Below, in pieces: positions 2,694 to 35,785 of a DNA stretch of 64,000 nt. Source of the DNA: Candidatus Kapaibacteriales bacterium (GTDB taxonomy: Bacteria; Bacteroidota; Ignavibacteria; Kapaibacteriales; UBA2268). Within the stretch, counting starts at the first letter, position 1, and the number at the start of each line of letters is the position of its first letter. The position numbers and the translations under genes were made by a program. The notes under the pieces were generated by a model. The model was not told where the DNA came from, ran no database searches, and saw nothing but the letters and a program-made list of their open reading frames with translations. The stretch covers positions 777,103 to 841,102 of the forward strand of contig CBFIFP010000001.1 of assembly GCA_965661945.1 (NCBI GenBank). Reading direction: 5' to 3'.

Positions 2694-3413
2694 TTAAAAT
2701 AAAATATATAAATAAGCAAATAATTCATATAAAAGATATTTCATATAATTCGATGCTCTAGAGCTGGGAAAATAATCAAATACTTCAAATTCTAAGTTTT
2801 TAATTTTATGTTGGGTAGGAACTAAATGATATTTTTCTAAACCATATTTATCAGCTAATAACTTAATTCTTGGAATATGACTTGCTGAACTAACTAACAA
2901 GACTTGTTTGTAATTAATAGTCTTTAGATATTTAATCTGTTCTTCAGTATTTATCGATTTATTATCAAGAATAATAGTAGCTTCCGAGCCAATAGACTTA
3001 AAAACATTACGCATAAGAACTGCTTCACTATTTTCGTCAAAAACGCTGTACCCACTTAGAATTACCTTAGACTTATCATTTATTAATGACATTGACTCAA
3101 GAATCCGAATTGCAGTTTCATCTTCTAATTTTGAAGTATTTGATATATTATTATTACTATGAGCACCTCCTCCAAAAACAAAAATATCATAATCACCTTT
3201 GATTTTTGATATATCTAAAGTTGGCTCTTGTCTTTCGTAATAATATAAAAGCGTTTCAGATATAAACGCAGTATTAAGTAAGTAAGCTATAAATATCGAA
3301 ATAAGTAAATATTTAATAGTTCTAAATTTAACATATATATAAAATGAGATAAAAATAAAAAGAAAGGAAAACAAAAGTGGATCTAAAAACTCTAAAAGTA
3401 TTTTTTCTGTCAT
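2694..3413 (-). CDS. DUF218 (YdcF/ElyC/SanA-superfamily) membrane-anchored protein
   Basis: 239 aa with an N-terminal TM helix. FVFGGGAH...VILSGYSV...LLVSSASHIPR matches the DUF218 core. A 4-nt ATGA overlap with the upstream pepP stop suggests translational coupling. Confidence 0.6.
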   Translation of the reverse strand: MTEKILLEFLDPLLFSFLFIFISFYIYVKFRTIKYLLISIFIAYLLNTAFISETLLYYYERQEPTLDISKIKGDYDIFVFGGGAHSNNNISNTSKLEDETAIRILESMSLINDKSKVILSGYSVFDENSEAVLMRNVFKSIGSEATIILDNKSINTEEQIKYLKTINYKQVLLVSSASHIPRIKLLADKYGLEKYHLVPTQHKIKNLEFEVFDYFPSSRASNYMKYLLYELFAYLYILF

Positions 3414-4756
3414 TTATTCATTAACTCCTCTAATTCCTTTACTTCTTTTGGTAAATCTTTTGATAATACTTTATTTCCATCTGATGTAATCATAATATCG
3501 TCTTCGATTCTTATACCAATATTCCACCATTTTTTATCACAATTACTTCCTTCTGGAATATAAATTCCTGGCTCAACTGTTATGACATTGCCTTTTTTTA
3601 AAATATCATAGGAACCGACATCATGAACATCTAAACCAAGATAATGCGATGTACCATGGGGAAAGTATTGTCGGGATTGAGAATTCGTTTTAATAAGACC
3701 TAGTTCAATTAATGCACTATCGATATATGACCTTGCTGTTAAATCTATATCTGAGAATTTAACACCTGATTTACATATAGAGATCGCTCTTTTTTGTGCT
3801 TCTAAGACTATTTGATAAATTTTTTTTTGTTCTTTGGTAAATTTACCACTTTTGGGAACTGTTCTTGTAATATCAGAGGCATAACCATGGTATTCAGCTC
3901 CACAGTCAAAAAGTACTAAATCATTGGTTTTAATGCTCATTCTATTATTGCTATAATGTAAGATGCAAGAGTTATATCCAGCTCCTACAATAGAGTTATA
4001 AGCTGTATTTTCTGCGCCTAATGTTTTAAACTCTCCTTCAATTTCTCCCTCTATCTCGTACTCATAATTATATTTTTTAATATTTTTAATAACTTTTTTA
4101 TGAGCTTCTACAGAAATATCAACTGCTTTTTGTATTAAGTTAATCTCGTACTCATCTTTAACTTCTCTTAGTTTTTTACTATATTTATGTTCATTATTAA
4201 ATATTATAAAAGGATTTTTCTCTCTTAAGTCATTAATTATTGATATTTCAAAATCATTTGGTGATTTTGAGTTTAAGTATGGAAAAAATTTTTCTCCTTT
4301 TGAATATGGGGCAACTGATACCTCCATTACATCATCAAGTATTGATGAGAAATTAATTTCTGTGTCATAAAATACTTCTTCAATACCTGAAAACTGTTTT
4401 ATTTCATTTTTAGAAGGAAGAGTGCCATGCCATATTTTATCATTATTTTCTTGCTTTTTAATCATTAAAAATTCAAAAATTATTTTTCCATTTATATTAA
4501 ATCCATTTTTGCTTATGAAGAGTATTGCATTTTTAAATGGATATGAAGTATAATAAAGCATATCACTGTTTTGTCTAAATTTACCATGTTTATCATTTGA
4601 ATAAAAATCTGATGATAATGCAAGATATACTTCACCCTCAAATAAAATCGACTTCAAATTACTTCTTCTTTTTTGATAAACTTCTTTCGGGGGGGTATCA
4701 ATAAAAACGTGATAATAATTGCTAAATAGTAAAGTAATAAATAATAGATTAATCAT
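3410..4756 (-). CDS. Xaa-Pro aminopeptidase (M24B family), probable signal peptide
   Basis: HGTSHYLGLDVHDVG, VITVEPGIYIPEG and GIRIEDDIMIT are M24 metal-ligand motifs. The ORF extends to 4783. The Met at 4756 (MINLLFITLLF) is the likely start and abuts the comF stop. Confidence 0.8.
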   Translation of the reverse strand: MINLLFITLLFSNYYHVFIDTPPKEVYQKRRSNLKSILFEGEVYLALSSDFYSNDKHGKFRQNSDMLYYTSYPFKNAILFISKNGFNINGKIIFEFLMIKKQENNDKIWHGTLPSKNEIKQFSGIEEVFYDTEINFSSILDDVMEVSVAPYSKGEKFFPYLNSKSPNDFEISIINDLREKNPFIIFNNEHKYSKKLREVKDEYEINLIQKAVDISVEAHKKVIKNIKKYNYEYEIEGEIEGEFKTLGAENTAYNSIVGAGYNSCILHYSNNRMSIKTNDLVLFDCGAEYHGYASDITRTVPKSGKFTKEQKKIYQIVLEAQKRAISICKSGVKFSDIDLTARSYIDSALIELGLIKTNSQSRQYFPHGTSHYLGLDVHDVGSYDILKKGNVITVEPGIYIPEGSNCDKKWWNIGIRIEDDIMITSDGNKVLSKDLPKEVKELEELMNK

Positions 4757-5445
4757 TTTTCTGCCAAAGTTATTGTTGCACAATCAATATTCTTAGGGGT
4801 GTATTTCATAATTTCTTTTGCCACTGAGTTAATTGTAGAGCCGGTTGTGAAAACATCATCAATAATTAGTATGTTTTTATTATTTATATAATTGTGATAC
4901 TTTTCATTTAAAATAAATACGTTTTCTAAATTAATCTTTCTCTCTTCAGAATTTAGTTTTGTCTGAGTTATAGTATATTTATTTCTAATTATTATATCAT
5001 CATTAACTTCACACTTTAAAACATCTGCAACTCCATTTCCAATTTCATAAGCTTGGTTAAAAGTCCTTTGACGCTTTTTTACTCTATGCAAAGGAACAGG
5101 AATTATTATATCGTATTCTATTTTGGATTCTTGTTTAATTTTTCTACCAAGATGTCTGCCATAATTAAAACCAATTTCTTTGTATTTCGTGTATTTAATG
5201 TAATGTATTAATTTTTGAACTTCATGAAAATTAGCAAATAAAGAAAATATATTATCAAAGTATATATCTTTTTTGATTAATATATCATTTTTTGTTTGTT
5301 TTATGTAATTTTGGTTTCCAGCTATTTCAAATTTATATAAAATTGAATCTGAAAAAACGATTTCTCCTTTTTTTAACTTATTTCCAGTTAAAATACAAAA
5401 TGGAGGATATACAATATTTAATAATATATGAAACATAATAAACAA
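4753..5445 (-). CDS. ComF-family protein (phosphoribosyltransferase domain)
   Basis: 230 aa with a C-terminal PRTase motif ILIIDDVFTTGSTI, the ComFC-like arrangement. Confidence 0.65.
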   Translation of the reverse strand: MFIMFHILLNIVYPPFCILTGNKLKKGEIVFSDSILYKFEIAGNQNYIKQTKNDILIKKDIYFDNIFSLFANFHEVQKLIHYIKYTKYKEIGFNYGRHLGRKIKQESKIEYDIIIPVPLHRVKKRQRTFNQAYEIGNGVADVLKCEVNDDIIIRNKYTITQTKLNSEERKINLENVFILNEKYHNYINNKNILIIDDVFTTGSTINSVAKEIMKYTPKNIDCATITLAEK

Positions 5446-5742
5446 TTTTTAAAATATGATTAATAAATTATATAAAATTAAATAATGTTTTCGGAATTAC
5501 CAAAATAATATTTATTAACTTTAATTATTTTATAAATATATACGAAAAAAAAGGTGTCTAAGAATATGTGAGATATTAATCAAGTTTTTCATTTATAGAT
5601 ATATAATTATCGCAATATTTTTGGATATTAATAATTATAAAGCCCTACTCCTACGGAGCAGGTGATTTGTTTTCTATTTATAGATAACTGCTTCGCTGTT
5701 GTTAAATTATTATAGATTTTGATTGATTATAAAAATTCTTTT

Positions 5743-5793
5743 GCCGAGGAATTTGGGTTCTGTGCCTATTATGAAATCGATGAAGACTTTTAC
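5743..5793. repeat. left copy of a 51-bp direct repeat (49/51 identical to 8561-8611); a detached remnant of a sanA-like gene 3' end
   Basis: gccgaggaatttgggttctgtgcctattatgaaatcgatgaagacttttac compared with the 3' end of the sanA-like gene at 8561-8611. The minus-strand translation gives VKVFIDFIIGTEPKFLG..., against VKVFIDFIIGTQPKFLGEKIKIE in the intact gene. Confidence 0.7.
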
Positions 5794-5829
5794 TTGGTTT
5801 TTATAACTGATTAAATTTGTATCCACCTC

Positions 5830-6357
5830 TCATTCTAAAATTATATTTTTTGTTATAATTTTATTTTTGAATTTGTATACAATTCTAAAATTACTTATTT
5901 TCTTATCAATTGGAATTGGATTATTAAACTTGTTAAAAGTATGTTCAATTTGATTACCATACAAATCAACTAACTTTATAAACTCATATTCATTTTCTGA
6001 AATAACTTCATCATCTAATTTTAAAGAAGTATCAGTTTCTAATATTGAAAAATAATTACTACTTGCTATAATTTCATTTTCAATTTCTACAATTAACTTG
6101 TATCTTAGGGAATTTTTAACTAAGTTTCCAACTACTAAATTCAATTTGATTTTATCATTAGATAAAAATACATTTTCAATTTCATTTTTTTCTTTTTTAA
6201 TTTTATCAAAAATGTAAATCTTTGCATTTATATACTTTTCAGTTGCTTTAATTTTCAATATGCCATCTTTGTAGTAATAATCATTTAGCGAACCTGAAGG
6301 CAATTCTATATTTGAAAACATAAAATTACTTAAAATTAATATTATTATTGTGAACAT
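5830..6357 (-). CDS. hypothetical secreted protein (N-terminal signal/TM), no recognisable domain
   Basis: 175 aa, hydrophobic N-terminus MFTIIILILSNFMF, very AT-rich codon usage (I/N/K/E rich). It is tightly coupled to the upstream 612-aa gene, with a 2-nt gap. Confidence 0.5.
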   Translation of the reverse strand: MFTIIILILSNFMFSNIELPSGSLNDYYYKDGILKIKATEKYINAKIYIFDKIKKEKNEIENVFLSNDKIKLNLVVGNLVKNSLRYKLIVEIENEIIASSNYFSILETDTSLKLDDEVISENEYEFIKLVDLYGNQIEHTFNKFNNPIPIDKKISNFRIVYKFKNKIITKNIILE

Positions 6358-6359
6358 TA

Positions 6360-8198
6360 TTACTCCGATTTAAAAATTTTTAAAATTCTATTGTCTTTTG
6401 TTTGAATTAATAGCAATTTATTACTTTCTATGTTATCTAATTTATTGCCATTTATATCATAAATTGATTCAATTTCAAAGTCATCCAATTCTTTTTGGGT
6501 AACTGATAACGTATTTAGTTCGAACATTAATACCCTCGCTGGACTATAAATTACTAAATTATTATCAATTTGTTGAAATGATATTGTTCTAGAGTACATT
6601 TCAAATTGAATATTATTTACAATAATAAAGTCATCATTAATTTCTAAATTCAAATTCGCAAATTGAAATTTTCTAGGTTCAGGAAAACTTACTACTTTAT
6701 TATCAACTATTTTATAAGTATTATTATATTTACTAGTTAAAATTATTGTCTCATCATTATAATGCAACATAAACCTTATTGTATTTGGAAAATTAAAATC
6801 ATAATCATTTAATTTATTATCCTTTATCATATATAAAGTACCATTGAGAACAAAAAATTTATCTATTTTTGAATCAATCAATGTAGTTGTACTATCTGCA
6901 ATTTTATAATTATATAAATCATTTTCATCATCTAAGATAATTAAATTATTATCATCCTTTAAAGTCATATTTTTAATTTTAGAATTAAAATTAATTTGAA
7001 TAATTTCTTCATTTTTATCTTCATAGTTTTTTATAATAAAATGAATGTATTCATTATGATGTCTATAATTTTGGGTATAAAGAATATTGTTAAAAGTATA
7101 TAAATTAAATTGACTGCCATTTCCAATTATTCTAAATTCTTGTTTTCCTTTTGATATATTCATTAAATATTCATTCCCTCTTATTTGAATTAATTCTTTT
7201 TTTGAATTTAACAAAAATAAATTATTCCAAAAATTTGATAAATATTTTGGGAAATATTTGATATTATCAAAATCATTATTTTCAAATAAAATGTATTTTG
7301 GATGACTTCTTTGCATAATTTGAGTTGCAAAATAATAGTTACCAATTCTTTCAATATTTTCAATTATGTGATTAATTTTATATTCTTTGATTGGTAAATT
7401 GTTTTCATAAATTCTTAAATATACATTATTGATATCTTCCTCATCTTGTGCTAAAGTTATTATGTTGTTTTCATTAATTATAAAATCTCTGATGAAATTT
7501 CCAGGCAAATCTAATATTTTAATTATTTCATTATTTTCAAGTTTATATATTCCATTCAAATCATAGAAATAATTAATATCATCATATTTTTTTGAATAAA
7601 TCATAGACAGATTTGATGTAAACATTACTTCTTTAATATTTGACTTAAATTCGTATTTAATTATTTCACTATTAATACTTGAATAAATCAAATAGTTATC
7701 ACCAATTTGAATTGGTTTATCAATGTTTTCTATATATCTATGATTATTCGTTTCTAAATTAATTAATGTATCACCTGATATTTTGTAATATTCATCATTA
7801 AGATTAAAAATTTCTTTAGTCGATTTATCAATTTCTCTGAAACTCAAATCTGCAACATTTAATTCAAAATTATGATATCCAGAACTCAAACTACCGTCAT
7901 ATATTTGAATTAAATCACCTTGTATTTTGTTTATTGAAATAAATCCATGAAATCCTAATTCTTTTAATCTGTTGTTTTCTATCACATTGACTAATTTTAG
8001 TTTTTCATCATAAATAAAGAGCATATCTGTAGAAAAAACAACTATATAATTTTCAGTTACTACTAACTGAGTAAAACCCATTTTCCCTATGTGTACAATG
8101 TGAAAACTAAAATCATCTATGCCAAATTCATCAATTATTTGACATTTTATACTTATTGAAAACATAGCTAAAACTAAAAATATTAATATTTTTCTCAT
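6360..8198 (-). CDS. hypothetical secreted protein, 612 aa, N/I/Y/K-rich (possibly a beta-rich repeat fold)
   Basis: A long clean ORF with a cleavable-looking signal peptide MRKILIFLVLAMFSISIKCQ. No motifs I recognise. Extremely AT-rich compared with flanking housekeeping genes. Confidence 0.55.
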   Translation of the reverse strand: MRKILIFLVLAMFSISIKCQIIDEFGIDDFSFHIVHIGKMGFTQLVVTENYIVVFSTDMLFIYDEKLKLVNVIENNRLKELGFHGFISINKIQGDLIQIYDGSLSSGYHNFELNVADLSFREIDKSTKEIFNLNDEYYKISGDTLINLETNNHRYIENIDKPIQIGDNYLIYSSINSEIIKYEFKSNIKEVMFTSNLSMIYSKKYDDINYFYDLNGIYKLENNEIIKILDLPGNFIRDFIINENNIITLAQDEEDINNVYLRIYENNLPIKEYKINHIIENIERIGNYYFATQIMQRSHPKYILFENNDFDNIKYFPKYLSNFWNNLFLLNSKKELIQIRGNEYLMNISKGKQEFRIIGNGSQFNLYTFNNILYTQNYRHHNEYIHFIIKNYEDKNEEIIQINFNSKIKNMTLKDDNNLIILDDENDLYNYKIADSTTTLIDSKIDKFFVLNGTLYMIKDNKLNDYDFNFPNTIRFMLHYNDETIILTSKYNNTYKIVDNKVVSFPEPRKFQFANLNLEINDDFIIVNNIQFEMYSRTISFQQIDNNLVIYSPARVLMFELNTLSVTQKELDDFEIESIYDINGNKLDNIESNKLLLIQTKDNRILKIFKSE

Positions 8199-8328
8199 AA
8201 AGTGTGTTGAACTCCAGTTAAAATAATTTTGGTGATTTTTTTAATAATTTAATTACAATTAATATTTTAAACATAATTTTACCTTTTTTATTTTTAAAAT
8301 TTTCATCTTTAAATAAGATTTATCAAAA

Positions 8329-8394
8329 TTAAAAAAATAATTAAAAAAATAATTAAAAAAATAATTAAAAAAATAATTAAAAAAATAATTAAAA
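8329..8394. repeat. 12-bp tandem repeat (ttaaaaaaataa) x5 plus a partial sixth unit
   Basis: Perfect head-to-tail copies at 8329, 8341, 8353, 8365 and 8377, plus partial ttaaaa. It lies about 130 bp upstream of the start of the 612-aa gene (minus strand). Confidence 0.85.
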
Positions 8395-8539
8395 TTTGAT
8401 GTTTTTAAGATTTTTTTAATTATTTGGCAATTTTCTAAAATTAGTGTGTAGAATACCTGACACTTTTTGTATTTTTATGGTTTGAAAAATCTAAAAACAC
8501 CAAATTATTAAGCATATTTTGTTTTGTTAATTTTGTTTC

Positions 8540-9172
8540 TTATTCAATTTTGATTTTTTCGCCGAGGAATTTGGGTTGTGTGCCTATTATGAAGTCGATG
8601 AAGACTTTTACGCGGGCGAGTTTTTCACGGAAGTATTGTCCGATTTGTAGGTTTGTGTTTACGTTTTTGGCGTTGAATGCGATTGCTTTATGTCCTAATT
8701 GGTTTGCTATGAATATTGCTCTTTGGTTATGGTACTGCTGACTTATAACAGTGTATGATGTTAAACCAAATATTTTATTTGCTCTTATAATTGAATCGTA
8801 AGTTCTGAATCCAGCGAAATCTAAGTAAATAATTGAATCTGGTATTCCTTTTTTTACAAGTGCTTTTTTCATATCAATTGGCTCATTGTAGTATGACTTG
8901 GAATTATCGCCACTTATTAATATTCTTTCGATTTTACCAAGTGCAAATAATTTATATGTTGCTTCAATTCTATATTTGAAATAGAGGTTTTGACTTCCGT
9001 CTTTAAAGTATTTTGAAGTACCGAGGAGTAAGCCCACTCTTTTATTTGGCAATTCTTCAATATTACTATAGATATATTTATTTGAATTAAATTGAATAAG
9101 AATATCTGCAATAATTATTGAAACTATTGCAAATGAAATTAAAATTAATATAATATATTTGATTATTTTCAT
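8540..9172 (-). CDS. SanA/YdcF-like DUF218 protein with N-terminal membrane anchor
   Basis: 210 aa. N-terminal TM, then VGLLLGTS...ILISGDNS...FAGFRTYDSIIRA...YHNQRA, which matches SanA-family DUF218. Its last ~17 codons constitute the right copy of the 51-bp direct repeat. Confidence 0.7.
   Translation of the reverse strand: MKIIKYIILILISFAIVSIIIADILIQFNSNKYIYSNIEELPNKRVGLLLGTSKYFKDGSQNLYFKYRIEATYKLFALGKIERILISGDNSKSYYNEPIDMKKALVKKGIPDSIIYLDFAGFRTYDSIIRANKIFGLTSYTVISQQYHNQRAIFIANQLGHKAIAFNAKNVNTNLQIGQYFREKLARVKVFIDFIIGTQPKFLGEKIKIE
8561..8611. repeat. right copy of the 51-bp direct repeat (inside the 3' end of the sanA-like gene)
   Basis: gccgaggaatttgggttgtgtgcctattatgaagtcgatgaagacttttac, with 2 mismatches to 5743-5793, same orientation, 2818 bp apart. 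Confidence 0.7.
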
Positions 9173-9228: not shown

Positions 9229-9927
9229 TTATTCAACTATTTCTAATAATTCAACTTCAAACATTAATGTTTCGTTTGGTCCTATCATTTGACCAGCCCC
9301 TCTTTCGCCATAAGCAAGTTCTGAAGGTATCCAAAATGTATATTTTGCACCAACATTCATTAATAAAACTCCTTCTGTCCAGCCTTTAATAACTTGATTT
9401 AATTGGAATTCAGCTGGTTCGCCTCTATCAACAGAAGAGTCAAAAGTTTCACCACTTAATAATTTACCAGTGTAGTGTACTTTGACTTTAGTTGAGGCAC
9501 TTGCTGGTTTAGGTCCGTTACCTTCTTTTTCAACTTTGTATTGAAGACCAGATTCAGTAACTTTAACACCAGGTTTGTTTTTGTTTTCTTCAAGGAACTT
9601 TTTACCTTTTTCAATAGCTTCTTTTTGTTGTATTTCCTGTTGTTTTTGTTGTTTTTCTTGCATAAATACTTGGAAAGCTCTCATAACTTCTTCTCTTTGT
9701 TCTTTAGAAAGAGTAGCATCTCCACTTTTTAATGCAGATTCCATAGCACTTTGGATTATTTTAGTGTTCATCATTAGAGAATCTCTTAATAGGTTTTCAC
9801 CTAAGTTCCAACCGATTGTATATGCAACAGAATCAAGTTGTGTTTTAATTTCAATTTTTTTACTTTGGCTTTCATTTGAGCAAGCTAAAAAACTGAATAT
9901 AACCGCAATTAGAATTGTAAATTTCAT
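9229..9927 (-). CDS. FKBP-type peptidyl-prolyl cis-trans isomerase (FkpA-like) lipoprotein
   Basis: The C-terminal [18 protein letters not shown]...[26 protein letters not shown] is the canonical FKBP domain. The N-terminal [16 protein letters not shown] is a lipobox signal. The central region is Q/K-rich and helical. Confidence 0.8.
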
Positions 9928-10004: not shown

Positions 10005-13000
10005 TTATGCTGATAATATTTCTTTGATATTAATTTTACTAGGTTGTTTATTACCAAAGATATTACCTACATTACTTTTTATAACTATGCGTTGATAATC
10101 TCTAATACCTGTACCAGCGGGGATTAACTGACCTATAATAATGTTTTCTTTTAGACCAGCAAGATTATCTACTTTTGCACCAATTGATGCTTCAGAAAGT
10201 ACTTTAGTAGTTTCTTGGAAAGAAGCAGCAGACAACCAGCTTTCAGTAGTTAAAGATGCTTGAGTAATACCGAGTAGAATTGGTTCCCCAATCGCAGGTT
10301 CAGCATTTCTAAATTCAGCTTGAACTTTATCTTTTTTCTCTAAATCAGCATTTGCTTGTCTAACTTTACGTTTTAAATAAAGGTGGTTTTCATTAAATTT
10401 AGAATCACCTTTATCTGAAATCACTACCATTCCTTTCATTCTTTCATTCTCGTCAAGGAATCTATTTTTATTTACGTTATCATTTTCAATTAAGTCTGTA
10501 TCGCCAGAATCATAAACTTTAACTTTTTGAAGCATTTGACGAACAATAACTTCAATATGTTTATCGTTAATTTTTACACCTTGCATACGGTAAACTTCTT
10601 GAACTTCATTTACTAAGTATTCTTGAACGGCATTAACCCCTTTAATTCTAAGAATATCATGCGGGTTAATTGAGCCCTCAGTAAGTCTATCTCCTGCTCT
10701 AACGAAGTCACCTTCTTGAACTAGAACGTATTTGGAAATAGGAACAGAGTATTCAGTTTTAGTTTTCTCATCAACGGAGGTAACAACAATAATTCTTTGA
10801 CCTCTTTTGTGCTTCTCGAAAGAAACAATACCATCGATTTCAGATACAACAGCAGGATTTTGCGGAGAACGAGCTTCAAATAGCTCAGTTACTCTTGGAA
10901 GACCTCCTGTAATATCTCTTGTTCTACCTAAATCTCTAGGGATTTTAACAAGAGGAGTACCTATTCTTACATCATCGTGGTCATCAACTCTAAGTTGAGA
11001 ACGTGATGGTATATTATAAGTTTTAAGAATTTCTCCATTTGCATCAACGATTTCAATAGAAGGAGACTTTGTTTTATCTCTTGAGTCTATAACGACTTTC
11101 GTAATGTGTCCTGTTTGCTCATCATTAACTTCACGGAAGGTTGTATTTAAAACTAAATCTTTAAATCTTACTTTACCAGTATGTTCAGCAATAATAGTTG
11201 CGTTATAAGGATCCCATTCATAAATTAAATCACCTTTTGCAACAGTATCACCTTCTAAAACTTTAAGTTCAGCACCATAAGTGGCATCATAATGTGTAAT
11301 TAATCTATCAGTCTCAACATCTTTAATGTTAATAACACCTGAACGAGAAACAACTACATTTACATCTCTACCCTCTTCCTGGTAGCTTACAATTTTAATG
11401 TTTTCAAATTCTATTCTACCTGCAAATTTTGAATTTACAGTTGATTGAGAGGCAACTAAAGAAGCTGTACCACCTGTGTGGAAAGTTCTAAGAGTTAACT
11501 GAGTACCTGGCTCACCAATAGATTGAGAAGCGATTGTACCAACTGCTTCACCTTGGTCCACCAGACTGCTAGTAGCCATATTTCTACCATAACACTTAGC
11601 ACAAACTCCTCTTCGAGTTTCGCAAGTAAGAACCGAACGTATTTTAACAGTTTCAATAGGAGAATCTTCAACTATATCTGCTAAATCTTCAGTAACAACT
11701 TCACCTTTTTTAATTAAAAGTTCATTAGATAATGGGTCATATACATCATCAAGAACTACTCTTCCAAGTATTCTTTCACCTAAAGATTCTTTAATTTCCT
11801 CACCATCTTTAAGAGCAGAAATGTTGATACCTCTTACCGTTTGACAATCAACTTCAGTAATAATTGCATCTTGAGCAACATCATGAAGACGACGAGTTAG
11901 ATAACCAGCATCAGCAGTTTTAAGTGCAGTATCAGCCAGACCTTTTCTCGCACCATGTGTAGAGATAAAGTATTCAAGAACCGAAAGACCTTCTTTAAAG
12001 TTTGCAATAATTGGATTCTCAATCAACTCACCAGAAGAACCAGAAAGAGATTTCTTAGGTTTAGCCATAAGTCCTCTCATACCAGCCAACTGACGAATTT
12101 GCTCTTTAGAACCTCTTGCTTTAGAATCAAGCATCATCCAGAAAGAGTTAAACCCATCGTTATGACTTGACATTTCATTATAAAGTTTATCAGCAACCCT
12201 GTTAGTAGCAGTTGACCAAGTATCAATTATTTTGTTGTATCTTTCACCAGAAGAAATAACACCATTCATGTAAGCAAACTCGATTTTGTCAATTTTGCCT
12301 TCTGCATTATTAATAATATCAGTTTTTAATTCTGGAACAACTACATCCTCAATTGATACAGATAAACCACCAGCAGTTGCATATTGAAAACCTACTGCCT
12401 TCATTTTATCAAGGAATTTAACAGTTTTAGCAATACCTGCTCTTCTAAAGCAAAGTCCGATAATTTGTCTTAATCTATTTTTAGTTAAAAGTTCGTTAAC
12501 AAGACCTAGTTCAGCAGGAGCAAAACTATTAAAAATCATTCTACCAGTAGAAGATTCAACTATTTCGCCATTATGACGAACTCTAATTTTAGCATGTAAA
12601 TCTAATTTCTTGTTATTAAAAGCAACAAGCATTTCATCATAAGATGAAAATAGTTTATTCTCACCTACAGCACCTTTTCGAATCTTGGTAATATAATAAA
12701 TACCAAGAACCATGTCCTGAGACGGAACAGCAATAGGTTCACCATTCTGAGTGTGCATAATATTGTGTGGAGCAAGCATCAAAAGCATTGCTTCTAACTG
12801 TGCTTCATAAGAAATAGGAAGGTGAACAGCCATCTGGTCACCGTCAAAGTCTGCGTTAAAGGCAGTACATACAAGTGGGTGAAGCTGAATTGCTTTACCT
12901 TCTACTAATCTAGGTTGAAATGCTTGGATACCTAATCTGTGAAGAGTTGGTGCGCGGTTTAGCATAACCGGGTGACCATCTATAACTTTTTCTAGTATAT

Positions 13001-14252
13001 CCCAAACTTCATTAGTTTTTCTTTCAACCATTTTTTTAGCACTTTTTACAGTTTTTACGTGTCCGCGCTCTATTAATTTTCTAATAACAAATGGTTTGAA
13101 TAATTCTACAGCCATATCCTTAGGCAAACCACATTCGTGGAGTTCTAATTCAGGACCTACAACAATTACAGAACGACCGGAGTAATCAACCCTTTTACCA
13201 AGTAAGTTTTGACGGAAACGACCTGCTTTACCTTTAAGAGTATCAGCAAGTGATTTTAATGCACGTTGAGATTCTGCTCTAACCGCTCTTCTTGAGTTAT
13301 CAAAAAGTGCATCTACAGATTCTTGTAGCATTCTTTTTTCATTTCTAAGAATAACTTCTGGAGCTTTTATGTCAATTAATCTTTTAAGACGATTATTTCT
13401 AATAATTACTCTTCTGTAAAGGTCATTTAAGTCAGATGTAGCGAATCTACCTCCCTCTAAAGGAACTAAAGGTCTTAAATCTGGAGGAATTATAGGGACA
13501 ACATCAAGCACCATCCATTCAGGTCTATTCTCTAAATGAGAAGCTTCTGACCGTCTGAATGCGTCAAGAATTCTTAATCTTTTAAGTAAGTCAGCTTTTT
13601 TAATTTGAGAAGTTTCTTCTTTAAGTAAAGATTTTAATCTATAATACTCATCAGTAGGATTTACTCTTTTTAGAAGCTCTTTAATACCTTCGCCACCAAT
13701 TAATGCTATGAATTTATTAGGGTCATCGTCATCCATTTCCAATTCTTCATCAGGAAGTGAATCAACAACATCAAGGTATTGTTCTTCAGTTAATAAGTCT
13801 TTAGTTTGCAAACCAGTCTTACCTGGTTGAACAACAACATAAGATTCATAATATACTATTCTTTCAATATCCTTAGTCGGCATTCCAAGAACACCACTAA
13901 TTTTACTTGGAAGAGAGCGTAAGAACCATATATGAATAACTGGAACAGCTAACATAATGTGTCCCATTCTTTCACGGCGTACAGATTTTTGAGTTACTTC
14001 AACCCCACATCTGTCACAAACGATACCTTTGTATCTAATTCTTTTATATTTACCACACGCACATTCCCAGTCTCTTATGGGTCCAAAGATTTTTTCACAG
14101 AAAAGACCATCTTTTTCAGGTCTGAAAGATCTATAATTGATTGTTTCGGGTTTAGTAACCTCGCCTCTTGACCTATTCAAAATATCGTCAGGAGAAGCGA
14201 TTTTAATAGTTATGCTACTAAAACCTTTTTTAGGAATCGATATAGTTTGCAT
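10005..14252 (-). CDS. rpoC: DNA-directed RNA polymerase subunit beta'
   Basis: 1415 aa. It has the NADFDGD catalytic motif, zinc-finger cysteines near the N-terminus and the overall beta' architecture. It lies directly downstream of rpoB. Confidence 0.95.
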
Positions 14253-21923: not shown

Positions 21924-22748
21924 TTAAAACATCTCAGATTGATCTTGATTTTTATTTAATAACTTAAAAAACCTTAATTCTTCTTCAGTGTTTTCAATAT
22001 TTTTATCTATTCCACCGTATCTATTTATACTTTCTTTTACTTGATAAATTACATTATTTAAATCCTGGTTAATATCATAAGTAGTGTATCTTAAAACATT
22101 CCACCCCTTACTTTTTAGATTATTATCTCTTATTTTATCATATTTTACATCCTTTTCGCTCAGATGGTAAGCATCCCCATCACATTCTATAGCTAACTTT
22201 ATATTTTTGCAAAACAATGCAAAATCAATAAAATAATTAAAACTCTTTATTTTTTCGTGAAATTCTCTTTCAGCAGGTATCATATTCTTTTTTAATTCCT
22301 TCCATAATTTTTCTTCTATTGAAGATCCAAGATATAAATCATTTATTTCATCGGCAGAAAGAAATTTTTTCATATTTGAATTTATAAATATGATAATTCT
22401 TCTTTTTTTACTTAATATAGGTTTTTCTAGTTTTATTAGATCTTCTATTTCAATTTTATAATATTTATCATATGTCTTGTCATTATATAGTTCATTTGGA
22501 AATAGTTCATTTCTTTCTACAATTTTAACATTCTTAACTTTTGAATAATATCTTACTTGAAATCCATCTTCTCCAAAAATTTTTCCTTGGTAAAAACCAA
22601 TATACTTTATACTTCCATCAATGACCATTTTTGGAACACTCTTTATTCTTTTGGTAGGAATCCTATACCAACCATATTTAAAAAGATAAATGAAATCATT
22701 ATTATCTTTAATAAGTGCAATTAAAATTTTTGAATCTGCATTTTTCAT
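21924..22748 (-). CDS. DUF559 (Vsr-like PD-(D/E)xK) endonuclease-domain protein with an uncharacterised ~140-aa N-terminal domain
   Basis: The C-terminal half EEKLWKELKKN...IDFALFCKNIKLAIECDGDAYH...YDKIRDNNLKSKGWNVLRYTTYDI fits the DUF559 pattern (ElDGxxH...D..RD..L...G..VlR). The N-terminal 140 aa (YGWYRIPTKRIK...) has no motif I can place. Confidence 0.6.
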   Translation of the reverse strand: MKNADSKILIALIKDNNDFIYLFKYGWYRIPTKRIKSVPKMVIDGSIKYIGFYQGKIFGEDGFQVRYYSKVKNVKIVERNELFPNELYNDKTYDKYYKIEIEDLIKLEKPILSKKRRIIIFINSNMKKFLSADEINDLYLGSSIEEKLWKELKKNMIPAEREFHEKIKSFNYFIDFALFCKNIKLAIECDGDAYHLSEKDVKYDKIRDNNLKSKGWNVLRYTTYDINQDLNNVIYQVKESINRYGGIDKNIENTEEELRFFKLLNKNQDQSEMF

Positions 22749-34888: not shown

Positions 34889-35785
34889 TTAAGCTCTTGG
34901 ATGAGCTTTCTTATAAATATCTTTTAATCGGTTTACAGTATTGTGTGTATAAATTTGTGTGGTAGAAAGCGATGAATGACCTAACATATCACTCACAGAA
35001 TTTATATCTGCTCCACCATCCATAAGATGTGTAGCAAAAGTATGACGCAATACATGAGGTGATTTTTTATCAGAATTAACTTTACCTTGCAACATTCTAT
35101 TGATTATTCTATAAGCACCTGATGGGTCTAATTCATTACCATTTTTAGTTAAAAATAACTTTGATTTTGTTGATTCATTTATTAACTGAACTCTATAAGT
35201 TATATAAGAAACAAGTGCATCTTTAGCTTTATTTCCAAGAGGAACAATACGCTGTTTTCTACCTTTTCCCGTAATTTGAAGTAAATTTGTACCTATTGAA
35301 ATATCTTTTACACGAAGAGAAAGTGCCTCCGAAATCCTCAATCCACTACTGTATAATAACTCAAATAAAGCATAGTTTCTTGCATCTAAGGGGCTATCAA
35401 TTTTATAATTATTTAAAATATTATCCATCTCTGTTTTTGTAATAAAAGATGGCAGCTTTTTATCAATTTTAGTAGTAAAAATTGGTGATGCTGGATTAGT
35501 ACTTATAAATTCTCGTTTATTCAAAAATTTAAAGAATGACTTAATCGAAGAAGTTTTTAACCTAATCGAATTTTTACTCAACCCTTTATCATCTAACCAC
35601 CCAAGAAAGGGTCTAATATCTTCTGTATCTATTAATGATATATCAACTTCTTGCTCATATTCTTGCATCAAATAATCAGCAAAGTCCTCCAATGCCTTAG
35701 AATAAACAAGTAAGGTATGCTCAGAGTAATTCCTTTCATTCTTACAATATGTTAAAAATAATTCAATAGATTTTAATAAATTCAT
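34889..35785 (-). CDS. xerD: tyrosine site-specific recombinase XerC/XerD family
   Basis: 298 aa. It has the RISEALSLR box and the C-terminal HVLRHTFATHLMDGGADINSVSDMLGHSSLSTTQIYTH with the catalytic Tyr. Housekeeping neighbourhood. XerD versus XerC cannot be distinguished by eye. Confidence 0.75.
   Translation of the reverse strand: MNLLKSIELFLTYCKNERNYSEHTLLVYSKALEDFADYLMQEYEQEVDISLIDTEDIRPFLGWLDDKGLSKNSIRLKTSSIKSFFKFLNKREFISTNPASPIFTTKIDKKLPSFITKTEMDNILNNYKIDSPLDARNYALFELLYSSGLRISEALSLRVKDISIGTNLLQITGKGRKQRIVPLGNKAKDALVSYITYRVQLINESTKSKLFLTKNGNELDPSGAYRIINRMLQGKVNSDKKSPHVLRHTFATHLMDGGADINSVSDMLGHSSLSTTQIYTHNTVNRLKDIYKKAHPRA

What the first reader, a model, noticed from the sequence alone, without database searches (positions are those of the whole stretch)
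5743..8611. A 2.8-kb ultra-AT-rich two-gene segment bounded by 51-bp direct repeats, one being the 3' end of a sanA-like gene
The 3'-terminal 51 bp of the sanA/DUF218 gene (8561-8611) recur 2818 bp away at 5743-5793 with only 2 mismatches. Flanking similarity extends to about 60 bp. The two copies are in the same orientation and the distal copy is non-coding. This is the footprint expected when an element integrates into the 3' end of a gene and carries a replacement 3' end. The displaced original tail stays as the distal direct repeat (attL/attR-like). The enclosed DNA (two coupled ORFs for secreted proteins of 175 and 612 aa) looks markedly more AT-rich than the housekeeping flanks. There is no integrase, so if this is an island it is a decayed or satellite one. 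Alternatively the repeat is the scar of a local duplication.
Basis: seen in the sequence. Interest (0 to 1): 0.6.

Follow-up and report, generated by a model that had tools for sequence, protein, structure and literature searches.

The report
Swappable gene slot behind sanA
A 2.8-kb pair of orphan secreted-protein genes sits in a slot at the end of the sanA gene, bracketed by two copies of sanA's last ~20 codons. Some strains of the same species lack the insert, and a sister species holds four different genes in the same slot, so this is a recurrent cassette insertion site with no integrase of its own.

Summary
Window 5735-5793 and 8553-8611 are 59-nt direct repeats (55/59 identical), the only two copies in the window. 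The proximal copy is the 3' end of sanA.

- **Empty site found.** Conspecific strains (L158, L162 and five short contigs) have sanA followed directly by comF. Their rpoC, fkbp and comF are more than 99.8% identical to the window.
- **Distal copy marks the native end.** It lies next to the conserved DNA (R) that follows sanA in empty sites.
- **Second example.** A sister species (L165) carries four unrelated lipoprotein genes in the same slot. It shares the boundary module after the sanA stop, and its cargo is followed by a copy of its own sanA tail (47/50).
- **Repeats stay similar within a genome.** Within-genome identity is 93-94%; between species it is 61-71%.
- **Composition.** The AT-richness reflects amino-acid content. 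GC3 and synonymous codon usage are host-typical.
- **Spread.** The insert moves between strains as part of a diverged block, with one crossover inside sanA.
- **No recombinase** lies in either insert.

Best reading: an integrase-less cassette hotspot at the sanA 3' end, a new variant of a known kind. The recombination mechanism is inferred, not shown.

The parts
8540..9172 (-). sanA-like (DUF218) gene whose 3' end is the target of the slot
   Evidence: Pfam DUF218 E 5.5e-16. NCBIfam SanA E 4e-54, below the equivalog cut-off. The order rpoC-fkbp-sanA is conserved in all relatives seen.
8553..8611 (-). Proximal repeat copy A, sanA codons about 188-207. The full 72-nt tail runs to the stop at 8540.
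   Evidence: Homology to the empty-site strain L158 ends at 8553.
8553..9026 (-). Diverged 3' part of sanA, the left arm of the recombination block that carries the insert between strains
   Evidence: 23 differences from L158 lie between 9026 and 8556, 21 of them in 8894-8556 (about 6%). The background is about 0.2% (18 differences over the ~10 kb from 19173 to 9200). sanA dS is 0.18, against 0.007 for rpoC, 0 for fkbp and 0.008 for comF.
8395..8539 (-). L module, a conserved boundary element that starts right after the sanA stop. It has 20-nt inverted-repeat arms (8485-8504 and 8395-8415) and a conserved core AAAAAGTGTCAGGTATTCTACACACTA (8442-8468).
   Evidence: 81% identical to L165 6974-7122 over 157 nt, E 4e-26, although the cargo is unrelated. 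No similar sequence after the sanA stop in the empty sites L158 and L172. Single copy in the window. RNA fold z -3.8 for the window and -4.7 for L165. No Rfam match.
8327..8394 (.). 12-bp tandem repeat (AATTAAAAAAAT, 5.7 copies) between the L hairpin and a TAATTTTG motif (8325-8332, minus strand)
   Evidence: The aligned array is about 36 nt (three units) shorter in L156, L084 and L165 than in the window. Reading TAATTTTG as a -7 promoter box is an inference from the published Bacteroidota consensus TAnnTTTG.
6360..8198 (-). ORF612, an orphan secreted or lipoprotein-like cargo gene
   Evidence: No Pfam, PHROG, NCBIfam or PADLOC hit. Only its own cluster among 1.84 billion representatives and 3 clusters at 90% identity. 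dN/dS 0.32-0.48, so it is a real gene; codons 29-130 give about 1.0-1.1 in the window allele. AlphaFold2 pLDDT 40, unusable.
5830..6357 (-). ORF175, second orphan cargo gene, 2 nt after ORF612
   Evidence: dN/dS 0.17-0.27.
5735..5793 (-). Distal repeat copy B, the non-coding displaced or duplicated sanA tail
   Evidence: In L083 the orthologous copy still runs to a stop codon (..KFLGERIEIE*).
5636..5734 (-). Haplotype-specific spacer after copy B, with a terminator-like hairpin at 5644-5662
   Evidence: L158 has 294 unrelated bp here. Terminator scan.
5446..5560 (-). R, the conserved native region downstream of sanA (TAGACACC-T8 ... TTTGGTAATTCCGAAAACATT...TAATTTTG), upstream of comF
   Evidence: Follows the sanA tail or its remnant in L083, L156-L158, L162 and L165. 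86% identical between the window and L165, where the next gene is ffh rather than comF. Single copy in the window.
4753..5445 (-). comF-family gene, the right-hand neighbour of the slot
   Evidence: Pfam Pribosyltran and NCBIfam ComF/GntX.

Best explanation
This is a chromosomal cassette slot (an additive flexible genomic islet) at the 3' end of sanA. Inferred mechanism: a DNA unit made of [sanA-tail mimic + L module + cargo genes + terminator] entered by reciprocal, Campbell-type recombination within the last ~72 nt of sanA. As a result sanA now ends in an insert-linked tail (copy A, followed at once by L). The tail that originally ended sanA sits behind the cargo (copy B), still joined to the native downstream region R. 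Recombination at the two tails is ongoing or recurrent, which keeps A and B alike within each species. It can also remove the cassette and give empty sites. Neither insert encodes a recombinase, so the enzyme would act in trans (RecA on about 60-70 nt of identity, or a chromosomal tyrosine recombinase). Between strains, the filled and empty states move as whole haplotype blocks by ordinary homologous recombination, with one crossover inside sanA and one upstream of comF. The cargo encodes fast-evolving exported proteins of unknown function, so the slot most likely diversifies the cell surface. Shown: the repeats, the empty site, the second cargo in the same frame, the conserved L, T and R modules, concerted similarity of A and B, and the diverged block. 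Inferred: a circular intermediate, the crossover point, the recombinase, and the cargo function.
For: (1) Empty site: in L158 and L162, sanA is followed by 477 bp and then comF, and five further contigs (L159-L161, L163, L164) carry the same empty-type sequence after sanA; these strains are more than 99.8% identical to the window in rpoC, fkbp and comF. (2) Copy B is followed by R, the sequence that follows sanA in empty sites, and in L083 B keeps a full C-terminus and stop codon. (3) Copy A is followed at once by the L module, which L158 and L172 lack. (4) L165 (sanA 75% aa, rpoC 87% nt) has sanA, a homologous L, four unrelated lipoprotein ORFs, a hairpin and a 50-nt copy of its own tail (47/50) that ends at the stop codon, then R. 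(5) The terminator hairpin before B is shared by L083 and L165 despite different cargo. (6) Each remnant is closest to its own genome's tail: 47/51 within L165 against 31-36/51 to all other tails, and 55/59 within the window. (7) In lineages with the slot, the last 72 nt of sanA have GC3 0.46-0.50, against 0.17-0.25 in lineages without it and a genome mean of 0.18; the last 48 sanA codons give 2 of the 5 highest of 782 windows. This fits a long-standing recombination site or a DNA-level constraint. (8) SNP density rises from about 0.2% to about 6% in the 3' half of sanA.
Against: No recombinase gene lies in the insert or in L165's insert. No circular or free form of the cassette was seen, and the L core and tail pattern have no match in viral contigs. 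The SNP pattern in the tails does not locate a crossover: A, B and the L158 tail are about equidistant, with 3-4 differences in 59 nt. The empty site is not a precise excision product, because 294 bp in L158 stand where the window has 100 unrelated bp after the tail. L and R diverge about as much as host genes (81-86%), which fits vertical descent of a fixed frame as well as it fits a mobile element. Only two independent filled lineages were seen. None of the other sanA loci scanned (L001-L155, from more distant genomes) showed a duplicated tail.
Confidence: 0.5

Rival explanations
1. Fixed ancestral frame with replacement. One ancient duplication of the sanA tail produced sanA-L...T-tail-R in the common ancestor of the window and L165 lineages. 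Cargo is then swapped by double crossover in the conserved flanks, as at O-antigen-type replacement islands. A and B stay alike by gene conversion.
For: L, T and R diverge about as much as host genes (81-86% against rpoC 87%). The filled haplotype moves between strains by flanking homologous recombination. Cargo proteins are exported, as in replacement islands.
Against: Empty sites lacking L, T and B exist in the same species (L158), and another lineage has the same empty layout (L172). Gene conversion between 50-60-nt repeats 2.8 kb apart would have to be sustained over a divergence at which sanA itself is only 75% identical.
Confidence: 0.25
2. Conventional integrative island or prophage remnant. 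A tyrosine-integrase element with an attP that carries the sanA 3' end integrated, as e14 and phage 21 do at icd. It later lost its integrase and most genes, leaving two cargo genes.
For: The attL/attR-like repeats of a gene's 3' end and the element-supplied stop codon match the e14/icd pattern (PMC6379469). L083 carries a larger version with an extra ORF of at least 787 aa, and its sanA-proximal end was not recovered.
Against: Neither complete insert (window and L165) has an integrase or any phage-family hit. Codon usage is host-typical. Independent decay would have to leave the same L and T boundaries in two species.
Confidence: 0.1
3. Scar of illegitimate recombination or tandem duplication. 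Homology-facilitated illegitimate recombination, or a duplication followed by a deletion, copied the sanA tail by accident when the cargo arrived.
For: The left crossover of the imported block lies inside sanA, as expected for a homology anchor. No recombinase is needed.
Against: The same architecture recurs in L165 with its own tail copy. There the repeat ends at the sanA stop codon, the left end of the repeat falls at about the same codons, and the L and T modules are homologous. Accidents should not repeat so precisely.
Confidence: 0.07
4. Insertion with a very long target-site duplication. An unknown transposition-like integrase made staggered cuts about 72 nt apart at the end of sanA, and gap repair copied the host's own tail on both sides of L-cargo-T.
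For: It explains directly why A and B match the host's own sequence in each species, and why L starts right after the stop codon and B starts right after the terminator.
Against: To my knowledge no bacterial element makes duplications of this length (casposons about 14-15 bp, CRISPR repeats about 30-36 bp). No Cas1-like or transposase gene is present. In the window, the last 13 nt of A differ from native-type endings.
Confidence: 0.05

Closest known systems
e14 and phage 21 integration into the 3' end of icd in E. coli
   Same: The inserted DNA supplies an alternative 3' end and stop codon for a protein-coding gene. The displaced native 3' fragment remains as a pseudo-tail at the far end, giving homologous attL and attR (PMC6379469).
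   Different: e14 is a prophage-like element with its own integrase and a 163-bp duplicated region. Here the unit is 2.8 kb with a 59-72-nt repeat, no recombinase, no phage genes and host-typical codon usage.
Additive flexible genomic islands: integration hotspots at tRNA/tmRNA genes, described for Alteromonas (PMC4898812). Prochlorococcus islands with partial tRNA repeats are a further example from my own knowledge.
   Same: A fixed chromosomal site holds different gene cassettes in different strains or species and is sometimes marked by repeats of the target's 3' end. Cassettes also spread by recombination.
   Different: The target is a protein-coding gene (sanA), not a tRNA. There is a single small cassette with conserved L and terminator boundary modules, and no integrase was seen.
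Integron gene cassettes
   Same: Small, mostly unknown-function cassettes are inserted at one site next to a conserved module that appears to carry a promoter. Cargo varies between strains.
   Different: There is no intI next to the site. By eye the L inverted repeat does not match the attC R''/R' boxes, and only one cassette per locus was seen. The repeat is a gene's coding tail, not an attC.
Xer-dependent integrase-less elements (IMEX, pdif modules)
   Same: These are mobile units with no recombinase of their own that use a host tyrosine recombinase. An XerC/D-like gene exists at window 34889-35785.
   Different: By eye the sanA tail has no dif-like 11-6-11 site. The dif sequence of this organism is unknown, so the idea remains speculative.
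Replacement flexible islands (O-antigen or glycotype loci)
   Same: Unrelated surface-related genes occupy the same conserved frame and are exchanged by homologous recombination, with raised divergence in the flanks.
   Different: Those loci are large polysaccharide clusters without target-gene tail repeats and are rarely empty.

Membership tests
Integrative genomic island or prophage at a gene's 3' end (e14/icd type) | Direct repeats at both ends derived from the 3' end of the target gene, with the gene kept intact | tested here: met
   59-nt repeat at 55/59; sanA ORF intact to its stop.
Integrative genomic island or prophage at a gene's 3' end (e14/icd type) | Empty attB site in close relatives | tested here: met
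   L158, L162 and five further contigs have sanA followed by comF or by the empty-type sequence after sanA. The junction is not base-precise on the right side.
Integrative genomic island or prophage at a gene's 3' end (e14/icd type) | Integrase or recombinase encoded inside the element, next to an att site | tested here: not met
   ORF612 and ORF175 have no Pfam, PHROG, NCBIfam or PADLOC hit. The four L165 cargo genes have no Pfam hit on record.
Integrative genomic island or prophage at a gene's 3' end (e14/icd type) | Composition or codon usage differing from the host | tested here: not met
   Overall GC is low (about 20%), but GC3 is 14-15% against 18.2% with sd 3.2, and synonymous usage is at z +1.0 and +1.8.
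Integrative genomic island or prophage at a gene's 3' end (e14/icd type) | Excised circular form with attP | not testable with these tools
   This needs read-level data. The L core and the tail pattern are absent from viral contigs.
Additive flexible genomic island (cassette integration hotspot) | The same chromosomal site holds different cargo, or none, in related genomes | tested here: met
   Window: ORF612 + ORF175. L083: the same plus an ORF of at least 787 aa. L165: four unrelated lipoprotein ORFs. L158 and L172: empty.
Additive flexible genomic island (cassette integration hotspot) | Repeat of the target marking the cassette boundary | tested here: met
   Window and L165. Absent in the L001/L166/L169 clade.
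Integron | An intI gene and attI next to the cassette array | tested here: not met
   The neighbours are fkbp, sanA and comF. The only tyrosine recombinase seen is 26 kb away.
Integron | attC site with R''/R' boxes at each cassette's 3' end | tested here: not met
   The cassette's 3' end is a plain terminator hairpin plus the sanA tail. The L inverted repeat lies on the 5' side and was compared with the consensus by eye only.
SanA (outer-membrane permeability protein) equivalog | Score above the NCBIfam SanA equivalog cut-off | tested here: inconclusive
   183 bits against a 363-bit cut-off, but full-length coverage at E 4e-54 and a Pfam DUF218 hit. The nearest named homologues are annotated SanA/YdcF.

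The most novel reading that the evidence does not exclude
The sanA tail, the L hairpin module and the terminator-tail end together form a previously undescribed, integrase-less cassette-exchange system, integron-like in logic. Circular cassettes of surface-protein genes would be inserted and excised at the coding 3' end of sanA by a trans-acting host recombinase, for example the XerC/D-like enzyme at 34889-35785. The GC3 peak in the tail would then be the footprint of the recombination site.
Probability: 0.15. Interest if true: 0.75.

Novelty: new variant of a known kind. Interest (0 to 1): 0.45.

Why it matters
It gives a clean, small example of how a streamlined, AT-rich uncultured bacterium varies its exported proteins at a fixed site without carrying mobile-element machinery. 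If the tails are true recombination sites served by a host enzyme, this would add a protein-coding target (sanA) and a new boundary design to the known ways of cassette exchange. That idea is directly testable with existing metagenomic reads. If the structure is only a conserved frame kept alike by gene conversion, it is still a useful marker locus for strain typing and for studying recombination-linked GC3 elevation.

Tried and rejected
- **Cargo function.** Pfam, PHROGs, NCBIfam and PADLOC gave nothing for ORF612, ORF175 or the L083 ORF of at least 787 aa. AlphaFold2 on three sequences gave pLDDT 40, so no fold search was run. A profile search of 1.84 billion representatives found only the query's own cluster. 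The L083 large ORF had no homologue at all.
- **Structured RNA.** There is no Rfam match in window 5300-8700 at E up to 1, or in L158 and L165 at gathering thresholds.
- **Mobile origin.** The L core and a degenerate tail pattern have no match in viral contigs.
- **Crossover mapping from SNPs.** I first read the L158 tail as 'A-left plus B-right'. I dropped this because the 3' half of sanA is about 6% diverged anyway and the L083 remnant mixes the states.
- **Wider survey.** None of the other, more distant sanA loci scanned (L001-L155) showed a duplicated tail. The GTDB and JGI scans returned only one close lineage (L001/L085), which has other genes after sanA and no repeat.
- **Literature.** No paper linking sanA to an attachment site was found.
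- **MITE idea for the L inverted repeat.** Rejected because L is single copy in the window and among the loci.
Full report
**1. Observation**

The repeat is real. Window 5735-5793 and 8553-8611 are direct repeats of 59 nt with 55 identical positions, 2818 bp apart.

All genes here are on the minus strand:
- rpoC, 10005-14252
- an FKBP isomerase, 9229-9927
- sanA-like DUF218, 8540-9172
- ORF612, 6360-8198
- ORF175, 5830-6357
- comF, 4753-5445

The proximal copy is sanA codons about 188-207. The distal copy starts 37 nt after the ORF175 stop and still reads VKVFIDFIIGTEPKFLGKRI. The same layout is found in independent assemblies (L156, L157, L081/L082, L084), so it is not an assembly artefact.

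**2. Composition**

ORF175 and ORF612 have the lowest GC of 52 ORFs (19.5% and 20.5%, against a mean of 30.6% with sd 4.6). The deficit lies in codon positions 1 and 2. GC3 is 14-15%, against 18.2% with sd 3.2.

A leave-one-out synonymous-codon likelihood puts ORF612 at z +1.8 and ORF175 at z +1.0, which is more host-like than average. Both proteins are rich in Ile, Asn and Lys. The AT-richness therefore reflects the amino-acid content of poorly constrained proteins and not foreign DNA. The compositional outlier is sanA itself (z -2.3).

**3. Empty site**

ORF612 has only three 90%-identity clusters in 5.8 billion proteins and one cluster among 1.84 billion representatives. Close sanA homologues led to long contigs.

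- In L158 (a 179,894-bp scaffold) and L162, sanA is followed by 477 bp and then comF.
- Five further contigs from other samples (L159-L161, L163, L164) carry the same empty-type sequence after sanA.
- Against L158, rpoC has dS 0.007, fkbp is identical and comF has dS 0.008, so these are strains of one species.
- Homology to the window stops at 8553 and resumes at 5635.

The 2.8-kb segment is therefore a genuine presence/absence polymorphism.

The right junction is not base-precise. After the tail, L158 has 294 bp with no counterpart in the window. The window has 100 unrelated bp there (5636-5735), including a terminator-like hairpin at 5644-5662.

**4. Which copy is native**

Copy B is followed, after that spacer, by a conserved region R (window 5446-5560). 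R follows the sanA tail, or its remnant, in every close locus (L083, L156-L158, L162, L165).

In L083, a more diverged lineage with ORF612 at 86% aa identity, the remnant still runs to a stop codon (..KFLGERIEIE*). About 30 nt later comes R. Copy B therefore sits next to the DNA that follows sanA in empty sites.

Copy A is followed directly by insert-linked DNA, the L module.

**5. A second, independent example**

L165 comes from a sister species (sanA 75% aa, rpoC 87% nt). Its locus reads as follows:
- rpoC, fkbp, sanA
- an L module
- four ORFs of 180, 263, 250 and 139 aa, each with a signal peptide ending in Cys
- a hairpin
- a 50-nt copy of L165's own sanA tail (9728-9777 against 6912-6961, 47/50), ending at the stop codon
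- R, then ffh

These four ORFs show no similarity to ORF612 or ORF175. Three features nevertheless match:
- The roughly 150 nt after the sanA stop are 81% identical to window 8395-8539 (E 4e-26).
- The hairpin AAAGGGTAATTnATTACCCTTT before the remnant is shared with L083.
- R is 86% identical.

No L-like sequence follows the sanA stop in the empty sites L158 and L172. It is single copy in the window. It folds into a 20-bp stem closing about 75 nt (z -3.8 and -4.7), with one compensatory change between the species. It has no Rfam match.

**6. Concerted similarity of the tails**

Each remnant is closest to the sanA tail of its own genome. Within L165 the match is 47/51, against 31-36/51 to every other tail. 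Within the window it is 55/59. sanA as a whole is only about 75% identical between these lineages.

An ancient relic evolving freely would not stay 93-94% identical to its partner. The options are:
- the duplication arose separately in each lineage;
- recombination between A and B keeps homogenising them;
- the insertion process copies the host's own tail.

**7. Recombination signature**

Differences between the window and L158 rise from about 0.2% to about 6% in the 3' half of sanA (21 differences in 8894-8556; sanA dS 0.18). L156, a filled strain, shows a different mosaic inside sanA.

The filled and empty states therefore travel as diverged haplotype blocks exchanged by homologous recombination, with one crossover inside sanA and the other near 5635.

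The last 72 nt of sanA have GC3 0.46-0.50 in the window, L158 and L165. In lineages without the slot (L172, L001, L166) the figure is 0.17-0.25. Within the window, the last 48 sanA codons give 2 of the 5 highest-GC3 windows out of 782. This fits a long-standing recombination site or a DNA-level constraint, but it is suggestive only.

**8. Cargo**

ORF612 and ORF175 are real genes (dN/dS 0.32-0.48 and 0.17-0.27). Codons 29-130 of ORF612 have dN/dS of about 1.0-1.1 in comparisons with the window allele, against about 0.2-0.3 elsewhere. That fits an exposed, fast-changing domain.

Function is unknown. No family hits were found and the structure model is unusable (pLDDT 40). L083 carries an additional ORF of at least 787 aa overlapping the start of its ORF608. 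That ORF has no homologue on record, and the end of that locus nearest sanA was not recovered.

**9. Mechanism**

My best reading (0.5) is a cassette slot created and maintained by reciprocal recombination within the sanA tail. The incoming unit supplies a working end for sanA, as e14 does for icd (PMC6379469), but without an integrase of its own. Spread between strains is by flanking homologous recombination. This matches the 'additive flexible genomic island' category (PMC4898812).

Rivals:
- A fixed ancestral frame with cargo replacement and gene conversion (0.25).
- A conventional island that lost its integrase (0.1).
- Accidental illegitimate recombination or duplication (0.07).
- A long target-site duplication (0.05).

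The tail SNPs do not locate a crossover. No circular form was seen. The only tyrosine recombinase found is an XerC/D-like gene at 34889-35785. ORFs from 35.9 kb onward were not scanned against protein families.

**10. Verdict**

This is a new variant of a known kind. It is of moderate interest and is directly testable with the reads of the listed samples.

Noticed in passing
window 8327-8394: The 12-bp tandem repeat (AATTAAAAAAAT) has 5.7 copies here. The aligned array is about 36 nt (three units) shorter in L156, and related short arrays occur in L084 and L165. It lies between the L hairpin and a TAATTTTG motif, so copy number could tune cargo expression.
   Followed up: partly
window 8540-8690 (last ~48 codons of sanA): There is a local GC3 peak (11/24 and 13/24 G/C-ending codons, against a genome mean of 4.3/24). 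These are 2 of the top 5 of 782 windows. The peak is present in L158 and L165 but not in L172, L001 or L166.
   Followed up: partly
window 6360-8198, codons 29-130 of ORF612: The N-terminal ~100 residues are hypervariable (dN about 0.21-0.23, dN/dS about 1.0-1.1 against L084 and L083), while the rest is under purifying selection.
   Followed up: partly
window repeat spacing and L165 6912-9777: The start-to-start spacing of the tail repeats is 2818 bp in the window and 2816 bp in L165, although the cargo is unrelated (two genes against four). This may be coincidence or a size constraint. L083's insert is larger.
   Followed up: no
window 34889-35785 (-): A 298-aa tyrosine recombinase (Phage_integrase plus SAM_1 domains, the XerC/D-like architecture) is the only recombinase seen among the ORFs scanned. 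ORFs from 35.9 kb onward were not scanned.
   Followed up: no
window 21924-22748 (-): A low-GC (23%) ORF with DUF559 / REase_MTES_1575 endonuclease-like domains sits next to the tRNA-Tyr/Gly/Thr/Trp cluster.
   Followed up: no
window 2694-3413 (-): A second DUF218 (YdcF-like) gene lies at the end of the comF-pepP gene string, so the genome has two DUF218 paralogues within 6 kb.
   Followed up: no
L158 10634-10915: The empty-site haplotype has 282-294 bp between the sanA stop and the shared region that match nothing else fetched. The stretch is relatively GC-rich, has short hairpins and has no Rfam hit.
   Followed up: partly
L165 9922, L172 1206, window 5445: The gene after the sanA downstream region differs between lineages: comF in the window, ffh in L165, an enoyl-CoA hydratase in L172, and a 158-aa signal-peptide ORF followed by alr and pheT in the L001/L166/L169 clade. 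The sanA 3' flank is therefore a synteny breakpoint across the clade.
   Followed up: partly
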